Source: Felis catus (Eukaryota). Taken from it: a stretch of DNA of 64,000 bases. Shown here in pieces: positions 15,100 through 63,889 of this stretch. The stretch spans positions 85,376,001-85,440,000 of the forward strand of contig NC_058368.1 in the NCBI RefSeq assembly GCF_018350175.1, read 5' to 3'. A model generated the notes under the pieces. The model ran no database searches. It was not told where the DNA came from and was given only the letters and a program-made list of their open reading frames with translations. A program made the position numbers and the translations under genes. Each line of letters begins with the position of its first letter. The stretch's first letter is position 1.

Positions 15100-15780
15100 C
15101 TTGGAGCCGAGCCAGTGGATAAAACCCTTCCTGGGCCTGCATCTTCTGACGCTGTAGAGTCCCTCCCTTCTGTGCCAGAGCACTGGCCCAGATAGCGTGC
15201 GCAGCTGGGGAAGAGAGCGCTGCTATCAGCGGGGCCAGGCGACTTCCAGCCTGCCATGGCCTCTGGGGCACCTGGGGAGCGGTTGCGCGAGGAGGCTAGG
15301 TGCCCGGTGTGTCTGGATTTCCTTCAGGATCCGGTCAGCGTGGCCTGTGGCCACAGCTTCTGCCTCAGGTGCATCTCGGAGTTCTGTGAGAAGTCTGACA
15401 GCGCGCAGGGCGGCCTCTATGCCTGCCCGCAGTGCCGGGGCCCCTTTGGGCTGGAGAGCTTTCGGCCCAACCGGCAGCTGGCCAGCCTGGTGGACAGCGT
15501 GCGGCAGCTAGGGCTTGGCGCGGGGCCGGTGGGAGTGCGCCTGTGTGCGCAGCACTGCGAGGAACTGACCCTCTTCTGCGAAGTGGACCAGGAGGCACTG
15601 TGCTGGGTCTGTGACACGACTGCTGAACACAGGAGTCACCACACCATGCCTCTGCAAGAGGCAGCTCGGTGTTACCAGGTGAGAGTCCCTGTGCGCACCC
15701 TGCAAAGCACACGTGGAGAGGCCCCCACTGCCAGTCTGCAAATGCGGCCCAGACATCCGAGCGGACTGAGCCACAGGTGT
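15100..15780 (+). promoter_or_regulatory. TRIM58 CpG-rich promoter/first exon with GATA and E-box motifs
   Basis: Local GC/CpG enrichment in an AT-rich window. AGATAG at 15190-15195, CAGCTG at 15202-15207, and minus-strand CTG-N7-TGATAG at 15223-15238. Confidence 0.6.
15256..15678 (+). CDS. TRIM58: TRIM58 coding exon 1 (RING + B-box2), 423 nt
   Basis: Kozak GCCATGG at 15256. Translation MASGAPGERLREEARCPVCLDFLQDPVSVACGHSFCLRC...CPQC (C3HC4 RING) and CAQH...CWVC...HRSH (B-box) closely matches human TRIM58. Donor CAG|GTGAGA at 15678/15679, phase 0. Confidence 0.96.
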
Positions 15781-23357: not shown

Positions 23358-23588
23358 GAAAAAGTGGAGATGCAGAGGCAGCGCTTCAGGCTGGAGTTTG
23401 AGAAGTATCGTGGCTTCCTGGCCCATGAGGAGCAGCTCCAGCTGCGGAGGATGGAGGAGGAGGAGCGAGCCACCCTGCAGAGACTGCGGCACAGCAAGAA
23501 CCTTCTGGGGCAGCAAAGCAGGGCTCTGAAGGAGCTGGCTGAGGAGCTGGAGGAGAGGTTCCAACGCCCAGCTCTGGGGCTGCTGGAG
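23358..23588 (+). CDS. TRIM58: TRIM58 coding exon 3 (coiled coil), 231 nt
   Basis: Acceptor actccag|, translation EKVEMQRQRFRLEFEK...RPALGLLE, donor GAG|GTAAGC. The 231-nt size is typical. Confidence 0.95.
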
Positions 23589-26317: not shown

Positions 26318-26340
26318 GGTGTGAGAGAAGCATTGAGCAG
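26318..26340 (+). CDS. TRIM58: TRIM58 coding exon 4 (23-nt micro-exon)
   Basis: Polypyrimidine tract ending ctttcag|GGTGTGAGAGAAGCATTGAGCAG|gtatgt, encoding GVREALS(R). The 23-nt exon is characteristic of this TRIM class. Confidence 0.92.
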
Positions 26341-26437: not shown

Positions 26438-26538
26438 AAGTAAGGATGTCACACAGGTGGAACTGGAGAACATCCCCATGGAGCTGAAGACAATGTGTCA
26501 CATCCCTGGGATGAGGGAAATGTTGAGAAAGTTCCAAG
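26438..26538 (+). CDS. TRIM58: TRIM58 coding exon 5 (linker), 101 nt, ends in phase 1
   Basis: Acceptor ttctcag|, translation SKDVTQVELENIPMELKTMCHIPGMREMLRKFQ, donor CAAG|GTAGGC. Confidence 0.93.
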
Positions 26539-27214
26539 GTAGGCTGCGTCTTTGAGCTTGGAGAACTATGGAGCCCAGGGTTTGGCTGTTTTTGTAATGT
26601 GTTACTGCAGAAGTCAGTCTGCAGAAACAAACAGAACCCAAAGTTTACTGACTAAAATCAGTAAAGGGCTATTTTTAAATCATGTCATTGGCTTCTTTCT
26701 GGATTGTGGAGGCTTTTGTTTCACCTCATCTCCCTCTGGGAGCCATGCAGATAGAGCCCAACCTCCTTTCCGTTGCTGGTAGCTTTGGGAAAGGGCACGG
26801 TTATGGTGATTTGGGCACTGCTCATAAAGGCAACCACACTACAGTGGAACACTGGCTTCCCTAAAGATTTTATTAAGTAAAGTGAGTCACATGGCCATGC
26901 CAAGTTATAAGGGTGGGTGGGAGAGAACACTTTGTTCAGAAGAAAGAAAACTGGGATATGTGTATAATTATAAAAAATATCAGAGGTACTAACACACATT
27001 TTAGCTACATTTAGTTAGAACAACATAGACTTGAAAGTGTGTTTCTTAGTTTATTAACTGTGATTTGAGTAAAATTAGTTCCAATGAATATTCATTTCCC
27101 TGTTTATAAAATGCTGAAAAATGTATTATTGTTTGGAAGACTAAATGAATGATATTTGAAAGCAGAAAAATAACCAATATAAAAGCCTTAAGGTACATCA
27201 AATAAGAGATTTGA

Positions 27215-27433
27215 TTTTTTTAAATTTTTTTTAACGTTTATTTATTTTTGAGACAGAGAGAGACAGAGAATGAATGGGGGAGGGTCAGAGAGAAGGAGAC
27301 ACAGAATCTGAAACAGGCTCGAGGCTCTGAGCTGTCAGCACAGAGCCCGATGTGGGGCTGGAACTCATGGACCACAAGATCATGACCTGAGCCGCAGTCC
27401 AACGCTCAACTGATTGAGCCACCCAGGCGCCCC
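27215..27433 (-). mobile_element. CAN-SINE in TRIM58 intron 5
   Basis: Reverse CAN-SINE flanked by GATTTGATTT on both sides. Confidence 0.88.
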
Positions 27434-28039
27434 AGGATTTGATTTATTATTTGTCACTTGAGGAGGAGCCAATGATATTCAATCAATTACTTTTGTGTAC
27501 GAATAACTGTGGTGACATAAATTTGTCTATTAGATTTGATTATTCTGTTCTTTAAAACAATATAGATTCAATATTTGTATTTATTTTTTATTTTGTGTAT
27601 TTTTAATGCTTATTTTTATTTTTGAGAGAGAGAGAGAGAGCACGAACAGGGGAAGTGCAGAGAGGCAGGGAAACACAGAATCTGAAACAGGCTCCAGGAT
27701 CTTAGCTGTCAGCACAGAGCCTGATGCAGGGCTCGAACTCACAAATTATGAGATCACGACCTGAGTCAAAGTCGAACACTCAACTGACTGAGCCACCCAG
27801 GTACCACTGTATTTATTTTTTAAAATTCACGTTATATGCAGCAATGAAAACAAACTGTGGCTAAATACTGGTTTCACTACTTACAGGGAGACAGCTTTGA
27901 CCCATATTGAGAAAACCCATGTTACCAGTCCTGCTCCTGCTTAATGATGGGAAAATTAATATATACCAACTGCATGAATTGTTACAATTTATTAAACTCT
28001 CATAATCAGTGTCATAATATTCCCATTTCTTTTACTGAA

Positions 28040-29520
28040 TTAAATAATTAATGAATCAATTCAATAAAATGAATTTATGCCAGTCACTACTCTAAGTATT
28101 GAAATATATTATTGAACAATAACAAAAAATCCTACAAATCCATAACTTTGTGTTGTAAATATTTACTTAAATTATGCAAAATACACAGAATGTTAGAAGA
28201 TTATACATAATATAAGGTAAGGGTAGCCAGAAGTTCGTGGGGTAGGGCATCTAAACTTGAATTTGACAATAAAGGAGGGCCCCTTCAAGGATAACTCATC
28301 AGATATCTAATCTGAAAGAAAACATTCCAGGCAATAGAAACAATGAGTGCCCATGCCTGAGATAGAAATATAGAAGATGTGTTTCAGGAACTATGAGGTC
28401 TCTGTAGCTGGGGAAGAATTAACAAGGGGAGAGTCAGAGAGGCCAAGACAAGACCAATTAGCACAGGGTGGTATGGACAGGTCACTGTGAGCAGGAAGCT
28501 TTACCTTTGAGTAAACAGGAAATCAGTAAAAAACTGTGAATGGAGGAATAGCATGATTATATTAATGTTTTGAGAGGCTCACTCTGTATGCTTCACTGAG
28601 AATAAATTCAAAGGGGCAAGGCTTTATGTGGGAAAAGCAATTAGGAGCCTTTGCAATAATTCCATTAGAGATGATTGTGGATTGGATCGGAGTGGTACTG
28701 TTGGAAGTGCTGAGGTGTGTACAGAATCTTGGAATATTTTGAAGGTAGACCTGGCAAGATCTGCTGTTGGATTAGATGTGAGTTGTCAGAGAAAGAGAAA
28801 AGTCCGAAATGACCCAAAGATTTAAATCTCTAGAGCTGGTGTAAGGAAGTTGCCATTTACATTGACGGTTAAAGGGCAGGTGAGGCAGAAGGAGGGGAGT
28901 TGGGTTTTGAGCATATCAATCTTGTGATGAGTATTAAATCTCAAAAGTTTGATGTCAGGTAGGCAAATGATTTTGCAAATATGGAGTTTCAGGAGGAAGG
29001 TCTAAGGTAGAGATATGCATTTGGAGTCAGTAAGCATATGAATGGAATTAAATTAAATCAATGAGCCAACCAGCCCAAGTACTATTGTGTGCTGAGACAG
29101 AAAGAAGAGGTCCAGGTCCTGAGACCACTGGTTTCTCCAATGGCAGTGATGGAGAAGAGGAGAAAACAAGAAAGGGGATCAAGAAGGAGTGAGGAGAAAA
29201 GAGGGAAGGAAAGCATGATGATGGCTGTCTTTGGGAAAGAGAAAGGAGGTTTTTCAGAACAAGGATATTCTCTACAGCATTAATGCTACACAGAAGTAAT
29301 TTAAGGTGAACTCATCAGTGTGGAGGTCACTGAGGAGATGGACACGGACAGTTTGATTACAGTGTTGTTATATCATGATGAGCAATTGAATCTAACAGAG
29401 AAGGGTTGGGGAAGGAATTGGAGACAGACCATATTAGAAACCATGTCACAGATTTATTTTCTTATAAATGGAGCAAGGAAGTGTGGTGGCTGGGAAATAA
29501 TGTGTAAAGACATAACATAC
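28040..29520 (-). mobile_element. Old LINE-2 remnant in TRIM58 intron 5
   Basis: Purine-rich L2-like tracts (CATTCCAGGCAATAGAAACA..., AGAGATGATTGTGGATTGGA..., GGATTAGATGTGAG...). Confidence 0.6.
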
Positions 29521-29924
29521 ATCAAATACACCTAGCACAATTCCATGGAAAACCATGTCTCAGTCTGTTATTTATGACTTCTAGAATATGGAGAGACCAC
29601 ATAAGCTCTGATTCTGAGTCTCCTCAGCTGTAATGTGGGGATGATAATGGCTACTCTATGGGTGGGTAAATGCATTAGCAGAGATGAGGTATTATTTATG
29701 TGACCAACTCAAGTTTGGGTTTCAACACAAGATAGCTAGAAGTGGTCATTGGAATAGTATTTGTTATTATGATATCAAAAATAAAACTATGTTGATGAAA
29801 TTTATTATTTTGAATATTTATAAGACAAGACACTGAATATTTTACATCCTTCCTTCTTCACTGAGATTTCACACATGCACAAGTAAAACTTCACATCAAT
29901 CTGACTGGGACTTCACAGCATCAA

Positions 29925-30314
29925 TATTGGTTTTCTATTGGTGTATAACAAATTACCACAGACTTAACTGCTTAAAACCTCACATGCTTATTAGCTCATA
30001 ATTATACAGATCAGACATCCATGTGGGATCAGCTAATTTTTCTCCTTATGGTTTCACAAGATCAACATTAAAGTGTTGGCCAAGCTGGTCTTCTCTGAAG
30101 AGTCTGGGGAAGAATCCACTCCCAAGTTTATTCAGTTTATAGGCATAATGTAGTCCTGACAGTTGTAGGGCTGAGATCCCCATTTTAAGAATTTGTGTGA
30201 TTATATTATATCCACTCAGATAATCTTCCTCTTTTCAAATAACATAACATAATCCTGAGAGTAGCACCAGGGTCTGAAGGTCATGGAGCTCATCTTAGAA
30301 TTCTGCCTACCACA
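29925..30314. mobile_element. MLT1 (ERVL-MaLR) LTR
   Basis: TTTCTATTGGTGTATAACAAATTACCACA...CTTAAAAC start and CATCTTAGAATTCTGCCTACCACA end are typical of MLT1. Confidence 0.7.
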
Positions 30315-30723
30315 GTAACATAACTTTGAAAGTAGTGAATTTCAAATTAATGAAATTTTCCTATGGATTTTGAGAAAAAAAAATAAATGCGGAAAATCTT
30401 CCTAAGAACACCCAAGTGCTCTGAAGTTAGATGAAAGGAATCTAAATGGCCATGCACATGGTTTGTCATATTATCAATGGTTATGTTTTTATTGAGGCAA
30501 TAATGAGTTCTGAATCATGTAGAGGTAACTGAGGAATACACAAGTGAGTGAAGAAAATAGTCAGCCACCTGCAAGGTAAAATATTTATTTCACTTTCTCT
30601 AGGAGTTAATAGAGAGAGAGGAGATGGGGAGTATTATGGACTATTATCCATAATATTGTGGCTTCCTAAGTTTTTACCTGTCTTTTCTGACGTTTCATAT
30701 GTCCCACAAAATTCTTCCCACAG

Positions 30724-31313
30724 TTGATGTCAAGCTGGACCCTGTCACAGCGCATCCTAGCCTCCTCTTGACTGCTGATCTGCGCAGTGTGCAGGACGGA
30801 GAGCTGTGGAGGGATCTCCCCAACAACCCGGAGCGATTTGATACATGGCCCTGTGTCCTGGGTTTGCAGAACTTCTCCTCAGGAAGGCATTACTGGGAGG
30901 TCATGGTAGGAGAAAGAGCAGAGTGGGGTGTAGGTGTCTGTCGAGAGACGGTGCTGAGAAAGGGGGAGACCACACCCTCTCCTGAGAACGGAGTCTGGGC
31001 CATGTGGCTGCTGAAAGGAAATGAGTACATGGTCCTTGCCTCCCCATCTGTACCTCTCCTCCACCTGGAACGGCCTCACTGCATTGGGATTTTTTTGGAC
31101 TATGAAGCAGGTGAAATCTCTTTTTACAATGTAACAAATGGGTCTTACATCTACACATTCAACCAACTGTTCTCTGGTATTCTCCGACCTTACTTTTTCA
31201 TCTGTGACACGATTCCTCTTACCTTGCCACCTATGACAGATGTGGAGTCAGAAAATTGGGCATCCAGGGGTCATCTTTACTCTGCTTCTAATGTTGGACA
31301 TGATCATTCCTAA
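30724..31313 (+). CDS. TRIM58: TRIM58 coding exon 6 (PRY-SPRY/B30.2) to stop TAA
   Basis: Acceptor cccacag|, translation (V)DVKLDPVTAHPSLLL...GRHYWEV...IGIFLDYEAGEISFYNV...LRPYF. Exon lengths sum to 423+96+231+23+101+590=1464 nt, i.e. 487 aa plus stop, with the frame open throughout. Confidence 0.96.
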
Positions 31314-31829
31314 AATTCTGTTCCTGAGAATTTTATGCCTAGCAAGTTTTCCTGGAGTGGAATCGGGAGGATGCAAATATGCTAAGCCCCAAAATGTCCC
31401 CATTTAGATCAGCACTTTAAACCTTATTGCTATGGACATTTTTCCATGAGGACAAAACAGAAAATATGAAATATTTGCATCTGGAGGAGGATTACAGAGC
31501 ATAATAATTTTAGAAATGCAGCAATCTCCTCAAGTCTTTCCAGGTGGTGCTACAGATTTTCTTGATGAGGCTTTCTTCAAGTGAATGGACCTGGTGTTAA
31601 ACAAAGATTTCTATACATTCATTATAATTTCACATTCATTTTTATATCCTTTTGTTCCAAGTCTTCGATCTATTGAGAATAAGAAATGTCATTTTTTTTT
31701 TTTTAGAAATGGCAATTCCTAAATTCGTGGAGAACAGTCCAATACAGCATCAGATCTATAATTCTGTTTCTCCCTCTCCTTATTTCCCTTCTCTTCTCTC
31801 ATTCTTTCTGTGTGTTTGTCTCCGTCTCT

Positions 31830-32052
31830 TTTTTTTTTTAATTTTTTTTCAACGTTTATTTATTTTTGGGACAGAGAGAGACAGAGCATGAAAGGGGGAG
31901 GGGCAGAGAGAGAGGGAGACACAGAATCAGAAACAGGCTCCAGGCTCTGAGCCATCAGCCCAGAGCCCGTCGCGGGGCTCGAACTCACAGACCGCGAGAT
32001 CGTGACCTGGCTGAAGTCGGACGCTTAACCGACTGCGCCACCCAGGCGCCCC
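31830..32052 (-). mobile_element. Young felid CAN-SINE downstream of the TRIM58 stop codon
   Basis: CpG-rich and nearly identical to the 20187 copy. TSD TCCGTCTCT at 31821-31829 and 32054-32062. Confidence 0.92.
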
Positions 32053-32680
32053 ATCCGTCTCTAACTTTTTATCTTTCTTGCTCTTGACTTTTTTTTTTCT
32101 CTCTACCTCTTGTATAGCCTTCCATTTTTTTCTAGATTAACAAATTCAGGACCATTTCTTTTTATTCAATTTTCCTATGACTACATTCATTTACTCTTTG
32201 AATCCTCTTTGTACTGAGACTAATTTCTGAGGATTCTGGAATCCATTTCTTTCATTCTGATATAACTGATTACCACACCATACCCCTCTGAGACTGCCAT
32301 TTTCCCCTTGATCTTTGGAGACATGTTTTAGAGTAGGAATTTCTCAGAATTCTGATGCAACTAGTTCTTTGACTTAGCCATTTACTATTTTAAGACCTCA
32401 ACACCTTTCTCTTTAGGTCTCAGCTACTTAATATGGTTCCTATATGTGGAAAAATGATATGGATCTTAGAATTCTATGGCAAATATTTAAGATCATGATT
32501 GATATGATTGGTTTTAATTAAACTTTTTACTTAAATACAATTTAAAGATGATGATGACGATTATGATGATGATCTGCTAATAATATTTGACTTATCTTTA
32601 AAATATACTCTCTACTTTCCTAACAAAATTCTTAAGTCATTGAAGGCTAACTTTGCTGTCATATTTCTCTGTATCTGTCT

Positions 32681-32686
32681 AATAAA
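32681..32686 (+). terminator. Candidate TRIM58 polyadenylation signal AATAAA
   Basis: First canonical AATAAA I can find after the TRIM58 stop codon. Usage is not demonstrated. Confidence 0.3.
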
Positions 32687-33819
32687 AAATTGCGAGGCAA
32701 ATGCTAAAATTCAAATGTTTAAGTGCCAAACAATTACTAATGAATGGCAAATTTAGTTAACAGTATTTTGATAATAATCTGCCAACATTTTAATCTTCCA
32801 CTTTAATTCTACCTTGAATTTTAAAGTATTTTTCTCTTCCAGAGAGATCTCTTTGACTAAAATCTTTCACTTACTTTCCAATAACATTATTAACATAGTT
32901 TTCTTTCTGCAATTTTTCAATATTTTTCTTTCCAGACGTTTTTCTTACATTTGGAGGACTATCATGAAGTATAATAATTTTAGAAATGGTATGATCTCAT
33001 AAACTATTACCAAATGACTCTATGAACTTTATTGATGAATCCTTGCATTAAAAAAGATTTATATACATTCATATTTGGTATATTTATATTTGATCATAAG
33101 CAAACAATTCCTCTCTCCATCTCTCCTTTCCAAATGGGGGTATTAATGTATTCTTATCTCCATCTTGGTGACATTTTATAGACCATGAATGCCCTAGGCC
33201 TCTTCCATGCATGGTTTGAGTAGAGAACAGGCTCATGCCTTGGGTTTCAGCTCATGTTTCCCCATCATCAGGGATTAAACAGGAGCTGGCAACTTACTGT
33301 AACACCTGAGTGTTGATGTTACTGTAAGGCCAGGATCCATGACAGGAGTCAATGCAGAGAAAATACACTCAGAGAAGTAGAAACCCTTCCACATAGACAT
33401 CAGGAGAAACAGAGTCACTTTTCTGAGATCTCACCTCCTTGGGGGTTCCAACACCCATTCACTTATGCTTAATGGGTAGAAGGACAACACCACATAGTCA
33501 GGGTGTGAACAGAGAATAACTAGTTCCTATGAGAAAGCAAACATCCTGGTTTCCACTGTTTCCCTCTAATGCTGTTATCTTACTTTGCATCTTACTATGA
33601 TTTATGTCAATCATTAAGCCAACTTAAGTGTGCCTTTATCCCTTGTTTCCTAAACTTTGCAAGGTTTTGTGCATCTTCCTAAAGGTTCTTTCTCTTCTTT
33701 ATGGAATTCTGGTTCACTAACAGCAAACTTCTTTAAATCCTATTTAAAGATTTTTCCTAGTCTCCTGAAACATACAGGAATGTGAGAGTGTGCATATACG
33801 CATGCATGCACACACACAC

Positions 33820-34726
33820 ACAGACTTCTCCATCTCAGTGGAAAGCAACACCAACTTTTCAGTTGCTCAAGCCAAGAATCTGGTTGACTTCTCTCTTGAT
33901 TTCTTTGGCCCTCATCCAAACCATCAGCAAACCCTTGGTTCTACCTTCAGAACATATACAAAGCTTAGCCAGTCCTAACCACTCTGCTGCTATAACTAGT
34001 CTGAACTTCCATCCTCTTCCACTGAGTTGCTACATTCGGTTCCTAACATTAGCTGTACTCCAGCCCTTTGCACATCCATTATGGATGCTGCAGCTGGGTT
34101 ATCCTTCAGCTCCCAAGACAGTACTTTGCAATGACTTTCCATTCAACTTAGATAATCTTTACAGCAAAACTTCAAACCCTGGAGTATCTGAACACCAGCT
34201 CCTTACCTGATTCTGATTTTGTGTCCCTCCACATGCTTCTGTTTTTATCTTCCTCCCTCTATCCTGGCACCTAGGCTGGGTTTACATCAGACAAGGCACT
34301 TCCCACCATGGGTCTTTCTTCCAGATGAGCCCTCTACCTGTGGTTCCATTTTCCCACATATCTCCTTTACTCGTCCCATTTTTTTCATTAATCCTGCTCA
34401 AATCCAACTTCTCAGTTCAACTAAACTGTCTGAATCACGTTGGAGTCCACCCAGAACCCACTCTCCCAGTCCCCTTTACCAGGCCCAATGGAGCCTTTTT
34501 TTCCAATATTGTACTTAACAATTTCTAAATGTATTCTATTATATTGTTATTTATTGTGTTTATTTTTGTTTGTTTGTTTTGCCTTTTATTGGTAGAATGT
34601 AAGCACTCTGAAGGGAGGGATATCGGTCTATTGATAACAGTATTTCCAACATATCTCAAGCACCTTAAGTACTGGTTTGTACATGGTTATCACTCAATTC
34701 ATATTTGCTGAATAATAAATGATTGA
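33820..34726 (+). mobile_element. Old LINE-2 3' remnant
   Basis: CAGTTGCTCAAGCCAAGAATCTGG..., CATCCAAACCATCAGCAAA..., TAGAATGTAAGCACTCTGAAGGGAGGGA, ending ATATTTGCTGAATAATAAATGA. Confidence 0.7.
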
Positions 34727-37700
34727 CCTTCAGGGGAAGCATTAAATCATAGATCTAAAAGTGTTTTCTGAAATGTAACATATTATACTATTATAATTAT
34801 TATTTTATTATTATTACTATTATTTATAAGTACACAATCACTGTCCAGTAAAGTTTAATGCCAAGTGCTAAATGAGTAGAATCCATTTTTAGGTATACAG
34901 AAAATTTGAAAAGAAGGATCAATTTGTGAAGGTAATAAATTCTAGGAACATGATGACTTGCCATTCCCAGGTATGGTCCTATTGAGCCTCCTGTAGCTTT
35001 GATTCCTTATGACAATATACCAACACTTTTGAATTATGCATTACCTCATATGCACTCCGTATGCCACCTTTCATACCCACTAAGGGTGTGGGGAGAATTC
35101 TGTAAAATTATATGGACTAAAACCTTTTTTTAAATTGAATCTTTCATGCTTTATGAGACCCTCTTGATCTGAGGTTCACAGAAGAGCCAACTCCAACAGC
35201 TAAAGGGTGTCTTGGGTCTTCTCTCCTCCCCATCACTTCTTACCATCATGCATGTCTCTGGTATTATACATTGGACTTTTTGTCTGGCCCAGGTCACTTT
35301 AAGGAATGACTAAAATCATAAAGAATGATTCAAAAGTCAACTGCAAACCTTAGATTCTAGTTTTTCTGAAGCTATAGTTCTCAGAGTTAGGTTTACAGTT
35401 TAACAAGACTGCATAATCTATTCAAATAACTAATTTGATAATTTCCTACTCCACCCCCTCAATCAGGTGACTGGTTTGTCAAGTGAGTTAACCAAATAAG
35501 CTAATGATTCTAACATGTTAAGAAGGTCCTGAATGAAGAAAAAAGGGAGGAGAGAGATATATGGGGCTGGTTGGACATAGGAAGTGAAATAGCTGCATTA
35601 GGAGTTAGAAAGAACTTAGCAAATTTAGAGTTGTAATTTCAACTCTTAGTGTCCCAAAGGGCACAGAAATTGGGAACGCTGGGATTTATTAAACCTGTCT
35701 GCTCTTCAAGCATGGACCCCTCCATGCATATTTTCTGTGTGCTACTGGGTCCCTCTGTGGAATTGTTCAACAGGGAAGAGGGAACAATGGAGGTGGTCTG
35801 AATATGTATCCCATACACATTCTAGAAACCTACAAGTTATATTGATTCATTTATATGAAATATCCTCTTTGTTCCCTGACTCTGTAACTATATGTACTCA
35901 AAAGTACCCAAATAATCCTTTTGATAAATTCTCTAACTAGTTGATTCAAACTCATCTGATTTTTCTCTGATATTTCTTGGCTGATTGCATGGATTCAATT
36001 TCTATTTATCTATTTACTTTAGTGTTATTAAAAAAAAATCCAACCTCATGATGTCATATTTGCCTCAATAAGGGCATTAAAACATGGTCATGTATCCACA
36101 ATCTAATAAAGTTAGAATTTCATAATAACTGCTCAAATTACCTCTAGGTTTTTTTTTTTTTCTGAAACTATAAGGTATAAGTTAATATATGCTGACATCT
36201 TCCTTTCAGATCTAAAAATAAATAAGTAAATAAATGAATTAAACAAAATAGTTCACCTTATTAGCTCCTTAAATTAATAATAAAATGTATATTAGTTAAT
36301 GCATTTATGACATTTTTCACTAAGACAAAGAGTTCCGTGTCATCATATATAAAATTTTTAGTAAAAAAAAAAAAGGTCAAAATTCTTTTGCTAAGGAGGA
36401 AAAAAGGAAAAAAAAAAGCATGATCTTATTCCATGTAGTATGGAACTGATTAGTCCTCAATTGTTTTTCAGGCACATAAAAATTCTTGGTAACAGGGGAG
36501 CAAATGGCCCGTCAGGATTTATGTTTATGAAACAACAATGGATTGAGGCTTTAGTTTTACTTACATGAAGTAATAAATCTTTTTTTATACAAGGGACAAA
36601 TTATCATGGTACTCATTTTTTGTCTGGACCTTATGGGAAATTGAACACAATGTGATAGGTATCTACAGCACACCTCAGTGTATGTACTAATGACCCCTGT
36701 GGGCTCAGAAGTTTTCCCAGAGCTTAAGGCTGTTGATGAATCAAGACCACCATTATAATACCTCCCCAGTCTTTCCTCAGGAGAGCTACATCATACTATC
36801 ATTGCCCTCAGCATAAATATTGTGGTCAATTGCATTTAAAGAGGAATGAGCCAAGCCAAGGAGAGGTGCTTTCATTTCCTCCACATCTGGAATTATACCT
36901 GGCTAGAACACCCATGTGAACTCAGTAGTCATGGAGAGGGCATTGTAAAATCCCATGGAGGTCCTCCACCTAGATCTGTACATTCTGACTTCTGACTTTT
37001 AGTGGAACCTGGTGCACACAAATAAAGATGGTGAGTAGATTTCTGGATTTAGGGACTCAACTCATAAATCTGCAGTTATCTTTTGGTTTGTTAAAAAAAA
37101 GCTGTATGATATGAATCAAAGGAACACAAAAATATAAAATGAGGAGTATCCTCCTTGCTCTTGGAAAGTTTATGAATTATGACAGACAGACCAAGAGAAA
37201 AGCTACACATAAGCACATACATCACAACTCATGTTATTTAGCTATAATAGAGCAATAATCTACCAATACAAAATCATTTTAAAAGATAAACAAGTAAAAG
37301 TGCTAAAGAGACAATATATGAAGAAACACAATATACAAATTCCCCCCCCCCTTTTTTTTAATGTTAGAATTGGTGTCAAGGAAGATAGATTTCTCAGGCA
37401 GACATGAGAAAATGAGATCTGAGATGGGAGTTTCATTTTGGGGGAGAAAAAAAAAGACATTGAAAAGGGTGTTCTCAGCTTCCAGGAGGGAGATGGGGAA
37501 ACGTCATCCCTTGCTTGGGAAGATATAAGCCTGAACCATTCCTGCATCAAAACATCAATCCTAGTCCCTATCATCTGCCATTGCAGCCACTTTTTGTGAG
37601 CTTAAAACTCTTTATATGGATGCCTGGATGGCTCAGTCGGTTAAGATTCCGACCTTGGCTCAGGTCATGGTTTCACCTTTCTTGAGTTCCAGCCCCACAT

Positions 37701-40700
37701 TGGGCTCTGTGCTGACAGCTCAGAGCCTGGAGACTGCTTCCTCAGAATCTGTGTCTTCCTCTTCCTGCCCCTCCCCCATTCACGCTCTGTCTCTGTTTCT
37801 CAAAAATGAATAAATGTTAAAAATTTTTAAAACTCTTTAATCTTTAAAAATACTTTGTAAATAAACTAAAATCTTTGATTATATGACCATCTGCTTTCCA
37901 GGAACTGAAAAAAGTACAATTTCTTTGACTTATGGTTTCAGTGTGGGCATTTTTTGCCATAGAATGGTGCATTTGGATACAATGGTATTTCCAGTGTTTG
38001 ACCAGCACCTACTGGGAGAAATGTATTTTATCCTTTGGTACACACACACTGCCAAATACACAAGTTAAGCAGTTGTTTTACAAGGTAATAGTTCCCTTTG
38101 TGCAGGTGAGCTGCTCTTTTATTTCCAATTCCACACAAAATTATGTCTGAAAGACCAAATCTTTAGTGTGTGGGGAGAGGTCAGGTCTCTCCAGTTCAGA
38201 GTTTGATACAGCCTTTCAGTTTCTCTGGTTTTGTTCAATGAAAAGGAAATGCTTCTCCAGGGTAAGGCAAACCTGAAAGGCCATGTTAAGCAATTCATTG
38301 TTTATTCTTTTGAGCTGTGTCCATGTATAAATGATAAAATGATAGATGTTGCCCAGTCTCTCTCCTCACCAGGAGAATAATGACAAATTCACGTAACATA
38401 CAGTGAAATTTGCTATGTGCAGGAACAGGTGCACAATTAGGTTAAATATGAAGATATTCACAGTGGTTATAGAAGGCTGTTATGAAGAGAAAACTGCATT
38501 GGGAGGTGGGGAAGGTGGGGAGGTTGTTCATGCAGAACCAATATGCTGAGAATGATCTCTACACAGAGAAAAGAAAACTGATTCTATTCCTTTAAAAGTT
38601 TGAAATTAAAGGAAGAAAATATTTGTCCCATCCCCAGAACCATTCAGAAAATGACCATATTCCATATTCCCCATGAGAGACCTGTTTCTTCCATGGAGAG
38701 AAGTGTGTGCTAGCAGCTGGCCTCGTGGACCCTCCCTGTCAGAGCCCCAGGGGCAGGACAAGTGACTTCTGTCTCATTCTAAAGACAAGGAAAGAGTGGT
38801 GCCTGGGCAGCTCAGTCTAAGTGTCGGACTTCAGCTCAGGTGATGATCTCATGGTTTGTGAGTTCAAGACCTACGTATCTGCACAAAGCCCACTTCCGAT
38901 ATTCTGCCCCACCCCCTGCCCCTTCCTCACTCCCTCTGTCTCTCTTTCTCAAAATAAATAAACTTAAAAAAATTAAAAACCAAAAAGAGGCAGCATCCTG
39001 GTTAAGAGCTGGAATAGTGTGACATAATAACATTTATTCTGAGTTTCCATTGTTGCAAGTCTTTTTGTGAAGTCATTCTTGCCTCCCCATAGAAGATGTG
39101 AACACAGGTGCAGTGGGGGGCTCAGTAGGTTAGCGACAAACTCCTGATTTTGACTCAAGTCATGATCTAGTGGTTGGTGAGATCCAGCACCTTGCTGGGC
39201 TTCAGGAGACAGTAAGAAGCCTCCTTGGGATTCTCACTCTCTGCCTGCCCTCTCTCTCTGCCTCTCTCTCTCTCTGCCCCTCCCTGAGCTCCCTGTCTCT
39301 GTCTCTCTCTCAAAATAAATACGTAAAGTTAAAAACAAAGTTGTGAAAACAATTCAGGAGATTAGAACTCAAGTTATTTTGAAAGACAAACCCATGCCCT
39401 TTCATAAGCATATGGCTCATTTTCTGCTCCTCTTTCTACTGTTCTCTTATTTCACAGAAAACATAATTTTAGGACCATGAAGTTGTGCAGCTGTTTGTTA
39501 TAAAACACTGACACCATTACAATGATTGAAAATTTGTTCCTGCCTTTCTTCCTACATCATGCCTTTTTTAGTTTGTTAATAAAATCAGATTTTCTTAAGT
39601 CAGATGGGACAATGATCTCTCTAAAGGAGGAATGACAAAGTTAAAAAGACATATTAACAAATTCAGAAAAATAATCATAGGGGAATTTCCTAAATATTAT
39701 ATTATACTAAATACATGCATGGGCATGTGTCCTATCTGATTTCATAATTCATGATTATTGATGATTATTTAATAAAGAAGGAATCATGTACAAATGAAAG
39801 CCTTGTTTAAAATGCATCATACTCTTGAGAAGTAGGTCTTTTTCAACAATTCAGTGCATACTTCCAGATATTGTTTCTATTTTAATGTACATTTTATACA
39901 TAGAAAAATATATAATACATAGAGTTTGTGACCAAAAAATGGCAGCAAGGTACATATAATCTGATTATACATTATATTTCACTTTTCACTTGTTTGAAAT
40001 TAATCTAGGTTTTGGAAAAAAAATTGCAGGTGAAGTTATGTACCTATACTTATTTTCATTTAGTAGTTGTTTCTAGTTCATAAAATTGTCATTTTTAATC
40101 ATTTCAATAACTTTAAACATATTTTTCTATTATCCATTTCAATCAATGTTATAATAAAGTTTATTGATTTTTATTTACATAATGTGGGTTAATAAATGCA
40201 AAATAGATTGCTAGATTCACAATTAATAAGTCATAAAAATAACATGTAATTTTAAATTTTATAATAGGTGTTTCTTTTGTTAAAATTACATATACAACCT
40301 CAAGATATATGTGTACTTTTAATTAATGATCTTTATAAAGGTTGTTCCAAAGTTAATATTCCAATTTATTCCTATCAAAAGTTAATGAGTTTATTTCCCC
40401 ACACTTTCCCAGCTGTGTATGCATCACATCTTTAAATACTTACCAATCTAAAAAGTAAATAACTTTATATGTTATACTCTTAGTCACTAGTGAGAATGAT
40501 TTTAATATTTTTAAATCATGTTTTGTAAATCATTTGTTTTCCTGTGAACTTCTTCAAGTTGCTGCCTATTTTTCATTACATGTTTTTTCTCCAATTTCTT
40601 GAAAAAAAATTTACTAAACAAGGTAGCCTTTCGGCTGTCATATTGAATTGCTCTAGTATTATCATTATTCTTTAGGCTTTGTATTAGTATTTTCTGTGGT

Positions 40701-41704
40701 AGGATTCCTTATGGATTTTTTTAAAAATATGTAATCAACTTTATTTGTATTTTGCTTCATACCTTTTGATAGTTGCAACTTGTTTAGTGAGATCTAAGAT
40801 AATCAGGAAAAAAAGAGAACAACTATGATTCTTTCCTATATAGTAGTTTTATCTTTTTAAATAAGTCTAAATAAGTTTTTATGGTAAGTTTTTATGAAAA
40901 GAATGAATGAAGGATCTATGGTCTACCCACTCCAAATTCCTTGTCATTGATCATGTTTTAATTATTGCATTTCCGTAGTATGTCTGGATGTATATTAAAG
41001 ATAGTTTCCTCTCACTAGACTTTTTTTATCTTCAGAATTTCCTTGACTTTTCTCATGGGCTTATTTTCCCATTCCCTATTTGTATAACACATAACCTTTA
41101 TGTGACATACATATAAACTTTCATATTTATTATATTTCTTTCATATTAAAAAATCCCAAAACTTACCTGTAAAATAAATAAGATAGTTTGATTATTACAA
41201 TTTTAGATGAAAAAACTATAAAATGGTAAAGAAAAATTCTAAGGTTTCATAATTGTCTCTTGTTGGCTAAAGGATTGTAACATGGGAGATTGGAGTTATA
41301 GCCCAAGATATTTTAAATCTATTCTTCTATATTGATCTGCAAGAGTTGTGGTTTATGTTCTCAAAAATACTTTGCTTTGAATGTGATTCATTCTTGGAAT
41401 TGCAATTTGGTAGATGTTTCTACACACATATGTGATTATCACATCAAAGTTTTATTATTTGTTGCATAATATTGTGATTTTTCCCCTCAAACACTGTATA
41501 ATACTTTGGAAGAAAAAATACTCTATTTCTTGAATACCATACCCAAATGAGAGAGAGCAAGAGAAAGAGAGGGAGAGGTGTAGAGAGGGAATAATTTTAT
41601 GTGGATGTTGCTTTACTAATATTCTATTGTCTCATACATTATTTATCTACTCAGGTGCTGTAAAATTTCCTCAATAATAATACTGAAATAAATGAGATTT
41701 ACCT

Positions 41705-41924
41705 TTTGAATTTTTTTTCAATGTCTTAATTTTTGAGAGAGAGAGACACAGTACGAGCGGGAGAGAGGCAGAGAGAGAGAGAGGGAGATACACAGAATGG
41801 GAAGCAGGATCCAGGATCTTAGCTGTCAGCATAGAGCCCAATGTGGGGCTCGGGCCCACAAACCGTGAGATCATGACCTGAGCTGAAGTTGGACACTTCT
41901 CCAACTGAGCCACCCAGGTGCCCC
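41705..41924 (-). mobile_element. CAN-SINE upstream of OR2W3
   Basis: Reverse CAN-SINE with flanking GAGATTT(A/G)CCTTTTG TSD. Confidence 0.88.
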
Positions 41925-42362
41925 GAGATTTGCCTTTTGGATAAAGAGTGGATGATGTATTCTGCATATAGTGGAGATATTCTAAATACTATTAATTGGT
42001 TATTGTGGGGCTCCATCTGGGACCTTTGAGATTTGAGCAGGAACTTAGGAACATTTTCCTGTCACTGGAATTAGAATCAATTCCAGCAGTAAAGGAAGAA
42101 GGTTCTCAGTTCCATTCCCTGGGTTCCAAACCAGCTCTGCTCCTTTCTAGAAAATGATAATTTTCTTAACACATATCTGTGTCAGTTTCCTTTTCTGTAA
42201 GTCAGGAATACAAAGAGTGCCAACTGCAAATCATTGTAGTCGGAGGTTAAATGAGTAAATAAATGTAAAGAAGCACAGAAGAATGTTTGGCTCATTGTAA
42301 GTGTTCCCTTATAATGGATATAAGTATTATTAGTATCAATATTCCTCTCAGGTGCAGCAGAG

Positions 42363-43307
42363 ATGGATGGGACCAATGACAGCACCCAGGGAAATTTCAT
42401 CCTTTTGGGGTTTTCTAACCATCCCCATCTTGAGAGGATCCTCTTTGTGGTCATCTTGATTGCATACCTCCTGACTCTTATGGGCAACACCACCATCATC
42501 CTGGTGTCCCGGCTGGACCCCCACCTCCACACTCCTATGTACTTCTTCCTCACCCACCTATCTTTCCTGGACCTCAGTTTCACCACCAGCTCCATTCCTC
42601 AGCTGCTCTATAACCTGAATGGCCATGACAAGACCATCAGTTACACAGGCTGTGCCATCCAGCTCTTCCTGTTTCTGGGTCTAGGTGGCGTGGAGTGCTT
42701 GCTCCTGGCTGTCATGGCATATGACCGGTTTGTTGCAGTCTGCAAACCCCTGCACTACCTGGTGATCATGAATCCACGTCTCTGCATGGGCTTAGTGTTG
42801 GTGGCCTGGGGCTGTGGTGTGGCTAACTCCTTGGTCATGTCCCCAGTCACCCTGCAGTTACCCCGCTGTGGGCGCCACAGTGTGGACCACTTCCTGTGTG
42901 AGATGCCTGCCCTGATTCGGATGGCCTGTGTCAATACAGCTGCCATTGAAGGCACTGTCTTTGTCCTGGCAGTGGGCATTGTGCTGTCACCTCTAGTGTT
43001 TATCCTGGTGTCCTACGGCTACATTGTAAGGGCTGTGTTACAGATTCAACCAGTGTCAGGGAGACAAAAGGCGTTTAACACCTGTGGCTCCCATCTCACA
43101 GTGGTCTCCCTTTTCTATGGAAATATCATCTACATGTACATGCAACCTGGAAACAGCTCTTCCCAGGACCAGAGCAAATTCCTCACCCTCTTCTACAACA
43201 TTGTCACACCACTCCTGAACCCCCTGATTTACACCCTCCGAAACAAAGAGGTGAAGGGGGCACTGAGGAGAATGCTGCTGGATAACAGAGGGGTAGGAAA
43301 GGAATAA
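42363..43307 (+). CDS. OR2W3: Olfactory receptor family 2 subfamily W member 3-like, intact 314 aa
   Basis: Single-exon ORF with OR motifs LHTPMYFFL, MAYDRFVAVCKPLHY, KAFNTCGSHL, PLLNPLIYTLRN and N-terminal glycosylation site NDS. Sequence and position downstream of TRIM58 match human OR2W3. Confidence 0.95.
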   Translation: MDGTNDSTQGNFILLGFSNHPHLERILFVVILIAYLLTLMGNTTIILVSRLDPHLHTPMYFFLTHLSFLDLSFTTSSIPQLLYNLNGHDKTISYTGCAIQLFLFLGLGGVECLLLAVMAYDRFVAVCKPLHYLVIMNPRLCMGLVLVAWGCGVANSLVMSPVTLQLPRCGRHSVDHFLCEMPALIRMACVNTAAIEGTVFVLAVGIVLSPLVFILVSYGYIVRAVLQIQPVSGRQKAFNTCGSHLTVVSLFYGNIIYMYMQPGNSSSQDQSKFLTLFYNIVTPLLNPLIYTLRNKEVKGALRRMLLDNRGVGKE

Positions 43308-59683: not shown

Positions 59684-62150
59684 TTAGCTTATTGATGAGC
59701 CCATATGGATACAGCAGTGGCTGCTTTCTAAAGAAAAACTGGCAGCTTTAAAATCTTTTGTTTCTGAATAATTAGAAGTGGGACATATTGGACCTTTAGC
59801 TAGTCCCTGGAATTCTCCAGTTTTTGTTATAAAAAAGAAATCTGGAAAATGGAGAATGCCGAGTGATCTCCGAGCCATAAATAAAAACATACAACCTATG
59901 AGGGCTCTACAGCCTGGCCTTCCGACACCTGCTGCTATCCCTCGAGATTGAAAAGTTATAATTATTGATCTTAAGGACTGGTTTTTCTCCATTTCCTTAA
60001 ATCTTAAAGATTCAAAGATATTTGTGTTCTCCGTTCCTGTAATTAATCATGAGGAGCCCATAAACATATTTCAATGGAAAATTTTGTCTCAACGAATGTT
60101 AAATAGTCGTACTCTTTGTCAGCTTTTTGTTGCAGAACCTTTCCGATATTTATGATCTCAGTTTCCTCATGCTAAGATCATCCATTACATGGATGGCATC
60201 CTATTAGCTTTACCCGAACGACATGATTTACATGCACTGTTTTTAGCAGCTCAGACAACCCTCTCAGAATATGGCCTTATTATAGCAGAAGACAAAATTC
60301 AACTTGATGATTCCTTATTATATTTGGGTCAAAAATTAATACAAAATTCAACAATGCCTCAAATGTTTAAATTAATAAAGATACCTTGCATACTTTAAAT
60401 GATTTCCAGAAGTTATTAGGAGACATTAACTGGCTAAGTCCTACTCTAGGTATACCTACTTATCAACTGACTCATCTTTTTGATATACTTAAAGGGGATT
60501 CCAATTTAAATAGCCCTAGAAAAGTAACTCTGGAAGCATCCCAAGAATTACAATGGACTGAACAAAAAATCGCTTCCAGTCAGCTTACTCTAATTAGCCC
60601 CTTGCTACCTGTTTCCTTATTAATTTTACTGTCACCTCATTCTCTTACAGGAGTATTTTGGCAGGCTAATGGAATCATAGAATGGATATTTCTTTCCAGC
60701 AAAGCCTTTAAAAAATTAGCTACATATTTAGACAAAATAGGAATGTTAATTTTTAAGAGTCAGGAAAGACTTAAGGAAATAACAACACAAGACCCTGAGA
60801 CGATTATCGTACCTCTGTGTCATGCACAAATATCCAAGGCATATCGGCAATGCATTTCATAGCAACTTGGAGTTGCAGATTATATAGGTCACATAGACAA
60901 CCATTATCCCAAATCCAGATTAATTGAATTTATTAAAACCACCTCCTTTATCATGTCTCGAATTGTACAATCAGTACCTGCAAATGGACCTAATTATTTT
61001 ACAGACGCCAACAAATCCAGTTATTCTGCATATTATGGTCCTACTTCTACATGTATAAAATCCCCACAAGCCTCAATACAAAAGGCTGAACTCTTTGCCA
61101 TATTTCTATTGCTTAAGGATGTTCCCTCCTCCATCAATATCTTAATGGATTCAGCCTATTCTAAACAAGTGATTGAAAATTTGGAAACCATTAATATTTA
61201 TTCAGATGTCAGAATTGTCCGAATTGTCTGACTTATTTTTTCAGGTCCAACATTGTCTCTAACATCGATCCCATCCTGTATATATTGCTCACATACAATC
61301 TCATTCTGGCCTCCCTGGACCTTTGGCAGAAGGAAACGTTACAGCGGATTCCTTACTGGCAGCTCCTGTTATTACAGCACAAGATTTTCACAATCTGACT
61401 CATCTTAATGTTAAAGGCTTAAGTAAACACTTTTCTATTTCCCTAAAACAAGCTAGAGAAATTATCACACAATGCCCCACTTGTGGGCCTATTGTCATCC
61501 CTCCATATTCTCAGGGGGTTAATCCCAGAGGTCAATAACCTAATGATTTACGTCAAATGGATGTTACTCATGTTCTCCAATTTAGTCGCCTTGCATATGT
61601 ACATGTATCAATAGATACATATTCTTGTTTTATAAGGGCTACACCTTTGTCAGGAGAAAAAAATGGCCTACGTTATTTAACACCTTTTAGAAGCATTTGC
61701 CACGATGGGACTCCCCTGGAATCTTAAAACTGACAATGGTCTGGCTTATACTTCTCACACTTTTCTTATATTTTGCCAAAAATGGGGCATTCATCATACT
61801 ACAGGCGTTCCTTATAATCCACAAGGTCAAGCTATTATTGAACGTGCTAATTGTACATTAGAAACCATGCTACAAAAACAAAAACAGGGGGCTATGGCCT
61901 TTAATCCAAAGAATCAATTAATGAAAGCATTATTTACAATTCACTTTTTGGATTTAAGAGGTAAACGAGCTCACCGCAGCTGAAAAATATCACACAGTCT
62001 CTAAAACCAGACCCCTTTCACAACCAATATTTTGGAAAAAACGATAATAACCAATGGTACCCTAGGTATGTTAAATCGTGGGGTCGAGGATTTGCTCTTA
62101 TATGCACAGATAACGGGGATATTTGGCTCCCAGCTCGATGATTAAAACCA
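59684..62150 (+). mobile_element. pol: Class II (betaretrovirus, ERVK-like) ERV pol remnant: RT, RNase H, integrase; disrupted
   Basis: Motifs [40 protein letters not shown] (degenerate YMDD), TLNDFQKLLGDINW, YFTDAN/KAELFAI, zinc finger H..TH...C..C, QMDVTH, LKTDNG, GVPYNPQGQAIIERAN. Several stops and frameshifts. No gag, pro or 5' LTR upstream. Confidence 0.93.
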
Positions 62151-62157
62151 ACACAAT

Positions 62158-63889
62158 ATGAACAGATGGACGAAGAGAAAAAGAGGGACAATTTTCGACC
62201 ACTGGAGAAAGATATGGAAGAATTAAGCCTTGAATGGGAGATTAAAAGAACAGAAAAAACAACGAAAGCCAAACCTCCGACATGGGGACAAAGAAGATGA
62301 CTCTAGAAGCAGAACAGATCCTCCAAAAACCAGGAACACCTAAGACTTCTACTACTCTGTTCAGTACCATGATGTCAGTTCTTACTTTAACTGTGAGTAC
62401 TAAAGAGAATCACACATATTGGGTTTATATTCCAAATCCACCTCTTAATAGATTAGTTACATGGGATGATCCCTCTTTCTCAGTTTATGTAAATGATTCC
62501 GTCTGGTTGCCTGGACCTTATGATAATAGAAGCCCATTTAAACCAGAAGAAGAAGGAAAAATAATTCCTGAATATTCTGTAGGTGCAGATGGGCCACCTA
62601 TATGCTTTGGAACAGGCGACCACTGTGTTAAATTTTGTTCACAGGCATGGATAGCAGAAATACCCAATGGGACTAATGTCTCTATATTGTACTTACTACA
62701 GAGAGTCTCCATGAGAAGTCAAAGAATTACATATGATCACCCTCCTAAATTGCCTCGATGTCAATTAAGAAAGATCATAAATCCTGAGGAACGGGTTAAT
62801 TGGGAGCTCTATAGAGTGAAAGGGCAGGCCTACGCAGGCCAACTCCATCTTGTTCTGTGTCCTTCACCTTGACCACACCTCCTCCCCTTGAGCAACCCCC
62901 CCCCCACCTGCCTAACAGGACTCGGACCCTTCCCCAGCCAATTGGCTGAGGCCACAGCTATTACCTCACCAACTGCCCCTAGGCCCCAATAAAACCTTTC
63001 TCCTTTTGAAACTCGCTCTCTCTCCCAGGTATCTCACCGCTGCGTCGGTGCAGGTAGGGGACTGAGCTCGAGCTAGCTCGAATAAAGGCTCTTTTGCTTT
63101 TACGTCGGACTCGGCTCCCTGGCAGTATTTGGGGATCACGAATTCTGGGCATAACAAGAGGAGAGGTTTGTAGAGTTCTTCTTAATACTTCCAAAGGAAG
63201 TGTCATTAATTGGGCCTCTGTATGCTCTGCTCAGACCAAATACTCCAAAAAAGAGCTCTGATGGTGACAATATCAAGAAAACATAATTTCAGATGTAACA
63301 TCTGAACCCATTATATGGCATGAAGGACGATGACTCCCCCCAGACCATGTTTAGCCAGTTCATTCAGAACTTTGGAAAATTGGTACTGGATTATTAGGCA
63401 TGGCCACTTGGAAAGGCCACTTAATGAGTATTTCAAATAAATTCTCTATCTCTTTTAGATTAAATGAGGCTCATGAAATTCAACAAGTGTCAGACTTTCT
63501 TTTCTGTTTATGTTAGGCATGCCTCATTGGGACCCTGATAACAATCATCTTACTTTCCATAATTGTTCCTTTTATACTTGTCTTAATTCTACTATTTCTT
63601 TTAACCAGGAAAAACAAAGCTTACATATCCTTAAGGCAAGAAATGGGGTTCGGATGCCTGTAATCATGGATCGGTCTTGGCAACACTCCCCTGAAATGTT
63701 TCTCATAGATGAAATATTGAAATATGTCTTACACCGCATCCGATGGTTTATAGCTTTACTGGTAACTGTTGTACTTGGAATTATAGCCATTACAGCTACA
63801 GCGGCAACAGCTGGTTTTACACGGCATCAGACTGTACAAACAACCCACTTTATACAAAACTGGCATCAAGATTCAGAAAGGCTGTGGAA
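62158..63889 (+). mobile_element. env: Class II ERV env remnant (HERV-K-like signal peptide, SU, start of TM), interrupted by a solo LTR
   Basis: Peptides KPPTWGQ, NHTYWVYIPNPPLNRLVTWDDP.VYVNDSVWLPGP, KPEEEG, HSELWK, KARNGVRMPVIMDRSW, RIRW/FIALLVTVVLGIIAITATAATAG and NWHQDSERLWN resemble HERV-K(HML-2) Env blocks in the same order. Confidence 0.9.
62817..63156 (+). mobile_element. Young class I (gamma-like) solo LTR, 340 bp
   Basis: TG...CA termini, perfect 4-bp TSD AGAG (62813-62816 and 63157-63160), CCAAT, AATAAA at 62988 and 63081, many intact CpGs. Removing it restores the env frame. Confidence 0.88.

What the first reader, a model, noticed from the sequence alone, without database searches (positions are those of the whole stretch)
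26438..43307. TRIM58 exon 5 can splice in frame onto OR2W3: a potential E3-ligase/olfactory-receptor fusion
Seen: TRIM58 exon 5 ends in phase 1 (CAA G|gt, 26538). Upstream of the OR2W3 ATG is an acceptor attcctctcag| (42351/42352) followed by 11 nt, GTGCAGCAGAG. Joining them reads ...RKFQ-G-A-A-E-MDGTND... with no stop, giving 874+11+945=1830 nt, a 609-aa protein. The two downstream CAG acceptors (exon starts 42358 and 42361) are also in frame. Donors of exons 1-4 would be out of frame. So the OR exon could act as an alternative last exon replacing exactly the PRY-SPRY exon, analogous to TRIMCyp domain swaps. Knowledge: TRIM58 is an erythroid RING E3 ligase. I recall human OR2W3 being ectopically expressed with TRIM58-OR2W3 chimeric reads reported, which should be verified. 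Inference and caveat: frame agreement has a 1-in-3 chance probability, and a folded 291-aa RBCC on the normally extracellular OR N-terminus raises a topology problem.
Basis: partly seen in the sequence, partly recalled or inferred. Interest (0 to 1): 0.72.

Follow-up and report, generated by a model that had tools for sequence, protein, structure and literature searches.

The report
TRIM58–olfactory receptor read-through splice
In a cat-family genome, the red-cell ubiquitin ligase gene TRIM58 could splice in frame onto the smell-receptor gene next door; the same join is known from human RNA and appears in public gene models of nine other mammals, and it is most likely ordinary read-through splicing rather than a working hybrid protein.

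Summary
Observation confirmed: TRIM58 exon 5 (phase 1, 26538) joined to the acceptor at 42352 gives an open 609-aa RING/B-box/coiled-coil + OR2W3 frame. Alone this is a 1-in-5 event: 20 of 95 other ORs of this genome would also join open. The same join stands in public protein models of 9 species in 5 orders, one a marsupial, with a 4-residue spacer (5 in the marsupial). Human TRIM58-OR2W3 RNA, including the form lacking exon 6, was sequenced in 2013 and called out of frame; an in-frame TRIM58-OR2T8 form was predicted then (PMC3566163). No read evidence for the felid was obtained. Best reading (0.62): read-through splicing that skips a weak last exon and lands on the OR's own 5'-UTR acceptor; the folded cytosolic N-terminus should invert the receptor's first helix, so the protein is probably degraded. 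The TRIMCyp analogy holds for exon position only. A functional membrane-anchored ligase is not excluded (0.08). A testable lead: two human TRIM58 variants tied to reticulocyte traits are eQTLs for the downstream ORs, as a splice switch would predict.

The parts
15256..15678 (+). TRIM58 coding exon 1 (RING, B-box), phase 0
   Evidence: domains on the identical protein P0291
19543..19638 (+). TRIM58 exon 2 (96 nt), phase 0
23358..23588 (+). TRIM58 exon 3 (231 nt, coiled coil), phase 0
26318..26340 (+). TRIM58 exon 4 (23 nt), ends phase 2
26438..26538 (+). TRIM58 exon 5 (101 nt), penultimate exon, phase-1 donor at 26538/26539
30724..31313 (+). TRIM58 exon 6 coding part (PRY-SPRY, last exon); lowest-scoring acceptor of the gene in a simple weight model; internal phase-1 donor after 31110
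42338..42351 (+). Predicted 3' splice acceptor of OR2W3 (pyrimidine tract and CAG)
42352..42362 (+). 11-nt spacer between acceptor and OR start codon; stop-free in the OR frame (G-A-A-E); two further in-frame CAG acceptors inside it
42363..43307 (+). OR2W3 open reading frame, 314 aa, 7tm_4; 81-91% identical to the OR part of the nine fused models

Best explanation
A read-through (intergenic cis-splicing) isoform. RNA polymerase running from the TRIM58 promoter sometimes passes the weak acceptor and poly(A) sites of the last exon (inferred); the exon-5 donor then takes the next good acceptor, which is the one OR2W3 uses for its own 5'-UTR intron, 11 nt before its ATG (junction shown in human RNA and in other mammals' models; inferred for this felid). 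The frame happens to be open and has stayed so because an 11-nt stretch held between an acceptor and a start codon rarely takes an indel. If translated, the folded RING/B-box/coiled-coil part cannot cross the ER membrane, forces the receptor's first helix into the inverted orientation, and the product is degraded (inferred from general topogenesis rules). Net effect: a minor loss of full-length TRIM58 message and apparent 'ectopic expression' of OR2W3 in TRIM58-positive tissue.
For: Same strand, 11 kb apart, penultimate exon to downstream coding exon: the usual pattern of such chimeras (PMC13501980 passage). Human RT-PCR and Sanger sequencing of forms with and without part of exon 6; authors call it a by-product of erroneous splicing (PMC3566163). 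Exon-6 acceptor scores lowest of the five TRIM58 acceptors (0.2-2.7 against 1.9-10.4; OR acceptor 1.9-4.5). Of 238 fetched proteins holding the end of exon 5, 188 continue into exon 6, 27 into OR2W3, 10 into an OR2T8-type ORF via an acceptor inside it (two gibbons), 12 into other acceptors and 1 stops there: the donor is promiscuous. Mouse Olfr322 (the OR2W3 orthologue by my recall) has six transcripts that start within a 240-base stretch and share one end about 10.7 kb away, so the OR has its own start and 5' intron. 21% of this genome's other ORs would join open as well. Under neutral indel rates that I assumed, an 11-nt spacer stays in frame over the sampled tree with probability 0.12-0.70. 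No hydrophobic stretch in the 291-aa N-part (maximum 19-residue hydropathy 0.97); a folded N-terminal domain prevents translocation and wrongly inserted receptors are degraded (PMC6269167 passages).
Against: The in-frame join recurs in 9 species of 5 orders, and the one length change seen (marsupial, plus one codon) keeps the frame. In this genome all 4 of 4 intact same-strand ORs within 200 kb downstream have a predicted proximal acceptor that is open in phase 1 (-11, -11, -14, -20 nt), above the 21% background; two of the four are close paralogues and the test was post hoc. Human OR2T8 has a curated 20-nt spacer (also 2 mod 3), although human OR2AJ1 has 22 nt. Several monkey and bat genomes carry three or more separate models with this junction, which suggests it is not rare there. 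No read evidence in the felid either way.
Confidence: 0.62

Rival explanations
1. The splice choice matters although the hybrid protein does not work as receptor or ligase: it is a switch that lowers PRY-SPRY-bearing TRIM58. Keeping the OR in frame sends the SPRY-less product to the ER for disposal, whereas an out-of-frame join would end in the last exon, escape junction-dependent decay and release a soluble RING/B-box/coiled-coil fragment able to pair with full-length TRIM58.
For: A VNTR in a human TRIM58 intron is associated with reticulocyte count (P 6.6e-88), not with TRIM58 expression, but with OR2T8 expression in thyroid (PMC13263140 passages), the tissue where TRIM58-OR2T8 splicing was seen. 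The TRIM58 missense SNP rs3811444 is a blood eQTL for OR2W3 only (bioRxiv 2024.12.19.629385 passage) and is tied to reticulocyte readouts (PMC10786715). From the VNTR ends 5.1 kb upstream of that SNP; that it lies in intron 5 rests on my recall of the human exon coordinates. PRY-SPRY is the substrate-binding part (dynein; PMC10788936). 4 of 4 downstream ORs open in phase 1.
Against: The authors of the VNTR paper propose a transcription-factor site instead; the missense change itself, or linkage, can explain the blood traits; human TRIM58-OR2W3 was reported out of frame; no tandem repeat was found in intron 5 of this genome; no splicing QTL was checked.
Confidence: 0.2
2. A functional, conserved hybrid protein: an E3 ligase module anchored in the ER or plasma membrane by the OR helices (N-terminus cytosolic, so with altered topology), or tethering full-length TRIM58 to membranes through the coiled coil; a TRIMCyp-like swap of the targeting domain.
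For: Complete RING, B-box and 7tm_4 domains in camel, macaque, marsupial and gibbon models; join conserved in phase from marsupial to placental models; macaque TRIMCyp uses the corresponding exon position (exon 6 to CypA; PMC2279257; exon homology by my recall).
Against: Only in-frame cases can appear as fused proteins, so the nine species are a biased sample; none of the 15 of 21 felid-cluster members listed, nor any carnivoran entry fetched, is a fusion; reported out of frame in human; apes show a different OR partner with a different join; topology conflict; canonical exon-6 acceptor intact, unlike macaque TRIMCyp alleles; no other TRIM-OR fusion among the best 150 of 13849 representatives; no protein evidence in the papers found.
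Confidence: 0.08
3. The junction is not used in felids at all; the acceptor serves only OR2W3's own upstream exon (or the real acceptor is the one at 42206), and the frame match is chance.
For: 1-in-5 background; an acceptor at 42206 scores 2.5-6.6, as well as or better than 42352 depending on the model, and gives a stop after 308 aa with exon 5; no felid fusion model was listed; 32 AATAAA/ATTAAA hexamers lie between the genes.
Against: The orthologous -11 acceptor is the one used in all eight placental species with models, and the spacer peptide is alike; the junction is seen in human tissues by three papers.
Confidence: 0.1

Closest known systems
Human TRIM58-OR2W3 and TRIM58-OR2T8 chimeric transcripts (Flegel et al. 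2013, PMC3566163)
   Same: Same locus, same donor (exon 5), same downstream OR; forms with and without part of exon 6; an in-frame TRIM58-OR protein was already proposed for OR2T8.
   Different: Human TRIM58-OR2W3 was described as out of frame; here, and in nine other mammals' models, exon 5 to OR2W3 is in frame.
Public models of a 608-617 aa TRIM58-OR2W3 protein (e.g. XP_064340610.1 camel, XP_019572492.2 horseshoe bat, XP_024646406.2 pig-tailed macaque, XP_043857371.1 Dromiciops)
   Same: Same junction position, same domain order, 4-residue spacer (5 in the marsupial).
   Different: They are computer models; their read support was not visible here. No such model was listed for a felid.
Read-through (intergenic cis-spliced) chimeric RNAs in general
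   Same: [quoted passage not shown]
   Different: Most are out of frame or species-specific (passage for frame; the rest recalled); this one is in frame and recurs across therian mammals.
Macaque TRIM5-CypA (TRIMCyp)
   Same: Tripartite motif joined in frame, at the exon before the B30.2 part, to an unrelated downstream ORF.
   Different: CypA is a soluble retrocopy with a new acceptor, linked to a mutation that destroys the canonical acceptor, and has a shown function; here the partner is an old resident seven-helix gene with its own promoter, the canonical acceptor is intact, and no function is shown.

Membership tests
Read-through chimeric RNA | Two adjacent genes on the same strand | tested here: met
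   TRIM58 stop 31313, OR start 42363, both +; no other OR ORF between
Read-through chimeric RNA | Penultimate exon of the upstream gene joined by canonical sites to a downstream exon | tested here: met
   GT donor at 26539, CAG acceptor at 42349-42351; met as potential only
Read-through chimeric RNA | Junction present in RNA of this species | tested here: inconclusive
   Runs holding exon 5 were listed but no reads were laid; shown in human (PMC3566163)
Read-through chimeric RNA | Downstream gene has its own promoter and upstream exon | tested here: inconclusive
   Five strong donors and one O/E-like site between the genes, no assignment possible; mouse Olfr322 has its own starts (orthology recalled)
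TRIMCyp-type domain swap | Intact RING, B-box and coiled coil joined in frame in place of the B30.2/PRY-SPRY domain | tested here: met
TRIMCyp-type domain swap | New C-terminal partner is an inserted, soluble binding domain in the same cell compartment | tested here: not met
   Partner is a resident seven-helix OR present next to TRIM58 from marsupial to placentals; N-part has no signal or membrane segment
TRIMCyp-type domain swap | Linked loss of the canonical downstream acceptor (macaque alleles) | tested here: not met
   Exon-6 acceptor AG intact and full-length ORF open, though it scores weakly; compare PMC2279257
TRIMCyp-type domain swap | Fusion protein made and functional | not testable with these tools
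   No proteomic or cell data available
Split OR genes (Barnes et al. 2020, PMC7055050) | OR coding region spread over two exons, upstream exon adding a short N-terminus (up to about 30 residues), no separate upstream gene | tested here: not met
   The upstream part is 291 aa of another gene and the OR has a complete single-exon ORF

The most novel reading that the evidence does not exclude
Therian mammals have kept, for some 160 million years (date recalled), an alternative last exon that turns the erythroid ligase TRIM58 into a membrane-bound RING/B-box/coiled-coil-odorant-receptor hybrid, and the choice between the PRY-SPRY exon and the downstream OR exons is a genetically variable switch; this would explain why human TRIM58 variants that shift reticulocyte traits show up as eQTLs of OR2W3 and OR2T8 rather than of TRIM58.
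Probability: 0.12. Interest if true: 0.75.

Novelty: new member of a known kind. Interest (0 to 1): 0.36.

Why it matters
If it is only read-through, it is a caution: OR2W3 counts in blood and other tissues may largely be TRIM58-driven chimeric RNA, which bears on claims of ectopic OR2W3 function and on eQTL assignments at this locus. If the switch is regulated, it gives a directly testable mechanism for a strong human blood-trait locus. If the hybrid protein is stable, it would be an E3 ligase fused to a GPCR, an architecture for which no other TRIM example turned up here.

Tried and rejected
Reads: 24 runs were listed for the exon 4-5 stretch; the one call to lay four of them on the locus returned nothing, so the listing is no evidence and the junction is untested in felids. 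Orthologous DNA of other mammals: a scan of metagenome contigs gave 12 OR loci at 34-62% identity, none OR2W3, so an unbiased spacer comparison could not be made. Human frame: the primer table of PMC3566163 gives no product sizes for the chimeras, its figures are not held, and the human OR annotation lists OR2W3 as a bare ORF. Mouse exon coordinates: the mouse GTF supplement is cut before Olfr322. Other TRIM-OR fusions: none among the best 150 representatives; ESM Atlas gave only plain OR clusters; neither shows absence. Short tails that follow exon 5 in bear, pig and fruit-bat entries could not be placed in this genome. OR promoter scan was uninformative. The acceptor weights are approximate values from memory, not a trained model. 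A first exon set with exon 4 one base off was corrected. Phrase search for the hyphenated fusion names found 0 papers. Earlier scan notes: nothing on this locus. No structure or complex prediction was run, as it would not bear on splicing or membrane insertion.
Full report
Observation. The six TRIM58 coding exons were rebuilt from the window and give 487 aa, identical to the Felinae TRIM58 entry P0291. Exons 1-5 hold 874 coding bases, so exon 5 ends in phase 1 at 26538. The OR ORF runs 42363-43307 and matches Pfam 7tm_4. Joining exon 5 to 42352 gives 609 aa, to 42358 607 aa, to 42361 606 aa, each ending at the OR stop; exons 1-4 stop early at these acceptors. A donor inside exon 6 (31110) is also phase 1 and would give 738 aa; a panda model leaves exon 6 at this position.

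Is it more than chance? I took 108 other OR loci of the same genome (28, 80 more picked from its list) and applied one simple acceptor model with weights from memory. Eleven gave no usable start codon and two had no AG within 40 nt. Of 95, the best acceptor lay 2 mod 3 from the ATG in 32 and was also stop-free in 20, or 21%. In one genome the match is therefore a 1-in-5 event. Against pure chance: all four intact same-strand ORs within 200 kb downstream have an open phase-1 acceptor (-11, -11, -14, -20). Two are close paralogues and the look was post hoc; human OR2T8 has a curated spacer of 20 nt (same phase) but human OR2AJ1 has 22 nt.

Other mammals. A search for longer relatives of the OR found RING + B-box + 7tm_4 proteins; further searches and cluster look-ups gave the same join in nine species: dromedary, two rhinolophoid bats, three Old World monkeys, slow loris, Damaraland mole-rat and the marsupial Dromiciops. 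Seven are RefSeq XP models, two are GenBank predictions. The spacer is four residues in the eight placentals (GIVQ, GAVQ, AAVE, GAVE, GALV; the window reads GAAE) and five in the marsupial. RefSeq splice variants normally rest on RNA-seq introns (my knowledge); the support itself was not visible. Of 238 fetched proteins that hold the end of exon 5, 188 go on into exon 6, 27 into OR2W3, 10 into an OR2T8-type ORF in two gibbons through an acceptor inside the ORF, 12 into other acceptors, and 1 ends there. No felid or other carnivoran fusion was among them (15 of 21 members of the felid cluster were listed). The sample is biased, since only in-frame joins become fused proteins, and with indel rates I assumed an 11-nt spacer would keep its frame over this tree with probability 0.12-0.70. 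Recurrence thus shows that the junction is old and used, not that the frame is selected.

Literature. Flegel et al. 2013 (PMC3566163; outline, section 8, passages and two supplements read) found human TRIM58-OR2W3 chimeras by RNA-seq, RT-PCR and Sanger sequencing, with and without part of exon 6, described OR2W3 as out of frame, called it a by-product of erroneous splicing, and proposed a TRIM58-OR2T8 hybrid protein from exon 5. Passages of PMC4466559 and PMC5258773 report the chimera in some human samples and not in others; PMC4363838 notes shared exons. Barnes et al. 2020 (PMC7055050; passages and supplement rows) count 11 chimeric OR loci each in human and mouse, one with an intact coding sequence, and list six Olfr322 transcripts with their own starts. 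Searches for TRIM58 with OR2W3 (27 papers), with OR2T8 (7), with chimeric/readthrough (21 listed), OR2W3 with chimeric and sperm (9) and the hyphenated names (0) showed no paper on the in-frame join across mammals; for most I saw only the listing, and subscription journals are largely missing.

Mechanism. Shown: splice sites, frames, domains. [quoted passage not shown] The exon-6 acceptor is the weakest of the gene in my model, and other species' models show many escapes from it. Inferred: polymerase read-through over 11 kb, use of the OR's own 5'-UTR acceptor, translation. The 291-aa N-part has no hydrophobic segment; a folded N-terminal domain blocks translocation and forces the first helix to face the wrong way, and such receptors are degraded (PMC6269167 passages). 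I put 0.62 on a by-product with a degraded protein.

Rivals. (1) A regulatory switch, 0.2: a VNTR in a human TRIM58 intron is tied to reticulocyte count and to OR2T8, not TRIM58, expression in thyroid (PMC13263140 passages), and the TRIM58 missense SNP rs3811444 is a blood eQTL for OR2W3 only (bioRxiv 2024.12.19.629385 passage; PMC10786715 table row). Chimeric splicing would produce just this pattern. The VNTR ends 5.1 kb upstream of the SNP (from coordinates); that it lies in intron 5 is my recall. The authors favour a transcription-factor site, and I tested no splicing QTL. (2) A working hybrid, 0.08: macaque TRIMCyp joins exon 6 to CypA (PMC2279257 passages), the corresponding position by my recall of exon sizes, but it comes with a destroyed canonical acceptor and a soluble partner; neither holds here. 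(3) Not used in felids, 0.1: a competing acceptor at 42206 scores as well and gives a stop.

What is missing. No reads were laid on this locus, no orthologous mammalian DNA was obtained, and the human frame could not be derived. Figure 5C of PMC3566163, which draws the human junctions, and the cut part of the mouse GTF of PMC7055050 were not available and bear on the frame question.

Verdict. A real splice possibility, a felid case of a known read-through chimera; the cross-species in-frame recurrence and the eQTL link are the parts worth a follow-up. Interest 0.36.

Noticed in passing
G000:C1:85458706-85459650 (L002, L037), about 40 kb downstream of the OR in the window: A tandem OR2W3-like paralogue, 89% identical in protein and nearly identical over its first half (suggesting gene conversion), with the same 11-nt open spacer but a weak GAG acceptor; a short fragment of its 5' end lies 2.2 kb upstream (L003).
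   Followed up: partly
window 30724-31313: TRIM58 exon 6 behaves as a loose exon: internal donor at 31110 used in a panda model, and alternative acceptors upstream (30603 scores higher than the real one; a macaque model extends the exon similarly) and inside it in other species' models.
   Followed up: partly
P0544 (polar bear), P0565 (pig cluster), P0359 and P0365 (fruit bat): Models in which exon 5 is followed by 4-33 unrelated residues and a stop, i.e. SPRY-less TRIM58; bear and pig tails begin alike, hinting at a shared cryptic exon that I could not place in this genome.
   Followed up: partly
P0192 cluster: The colugo has at least seven separate 'TRIM58-like' entries on one chromosome, an apparent local expansion of a normally single-copy gene.
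   Followed up: no
window 60371-62872: Interrupted open frames whose translations resemble retroviral pol and env (resemblance from recall, not tested): an old endogenous retrovirus remnant between the two OR2W3-like genes.
   Followed up: no
G000:C1 about 85503700-85504800 (joined coordinates 127726-128777): A broken OR on the minus strand among the downstream ORs.
   Followed up: no
human locus, from papers: Two TRIM58 variants associated with reticulocyte traits are reported as eQTLs of OR2T8 or OR2W3 rather than TRIM58.
   Followed up: partly
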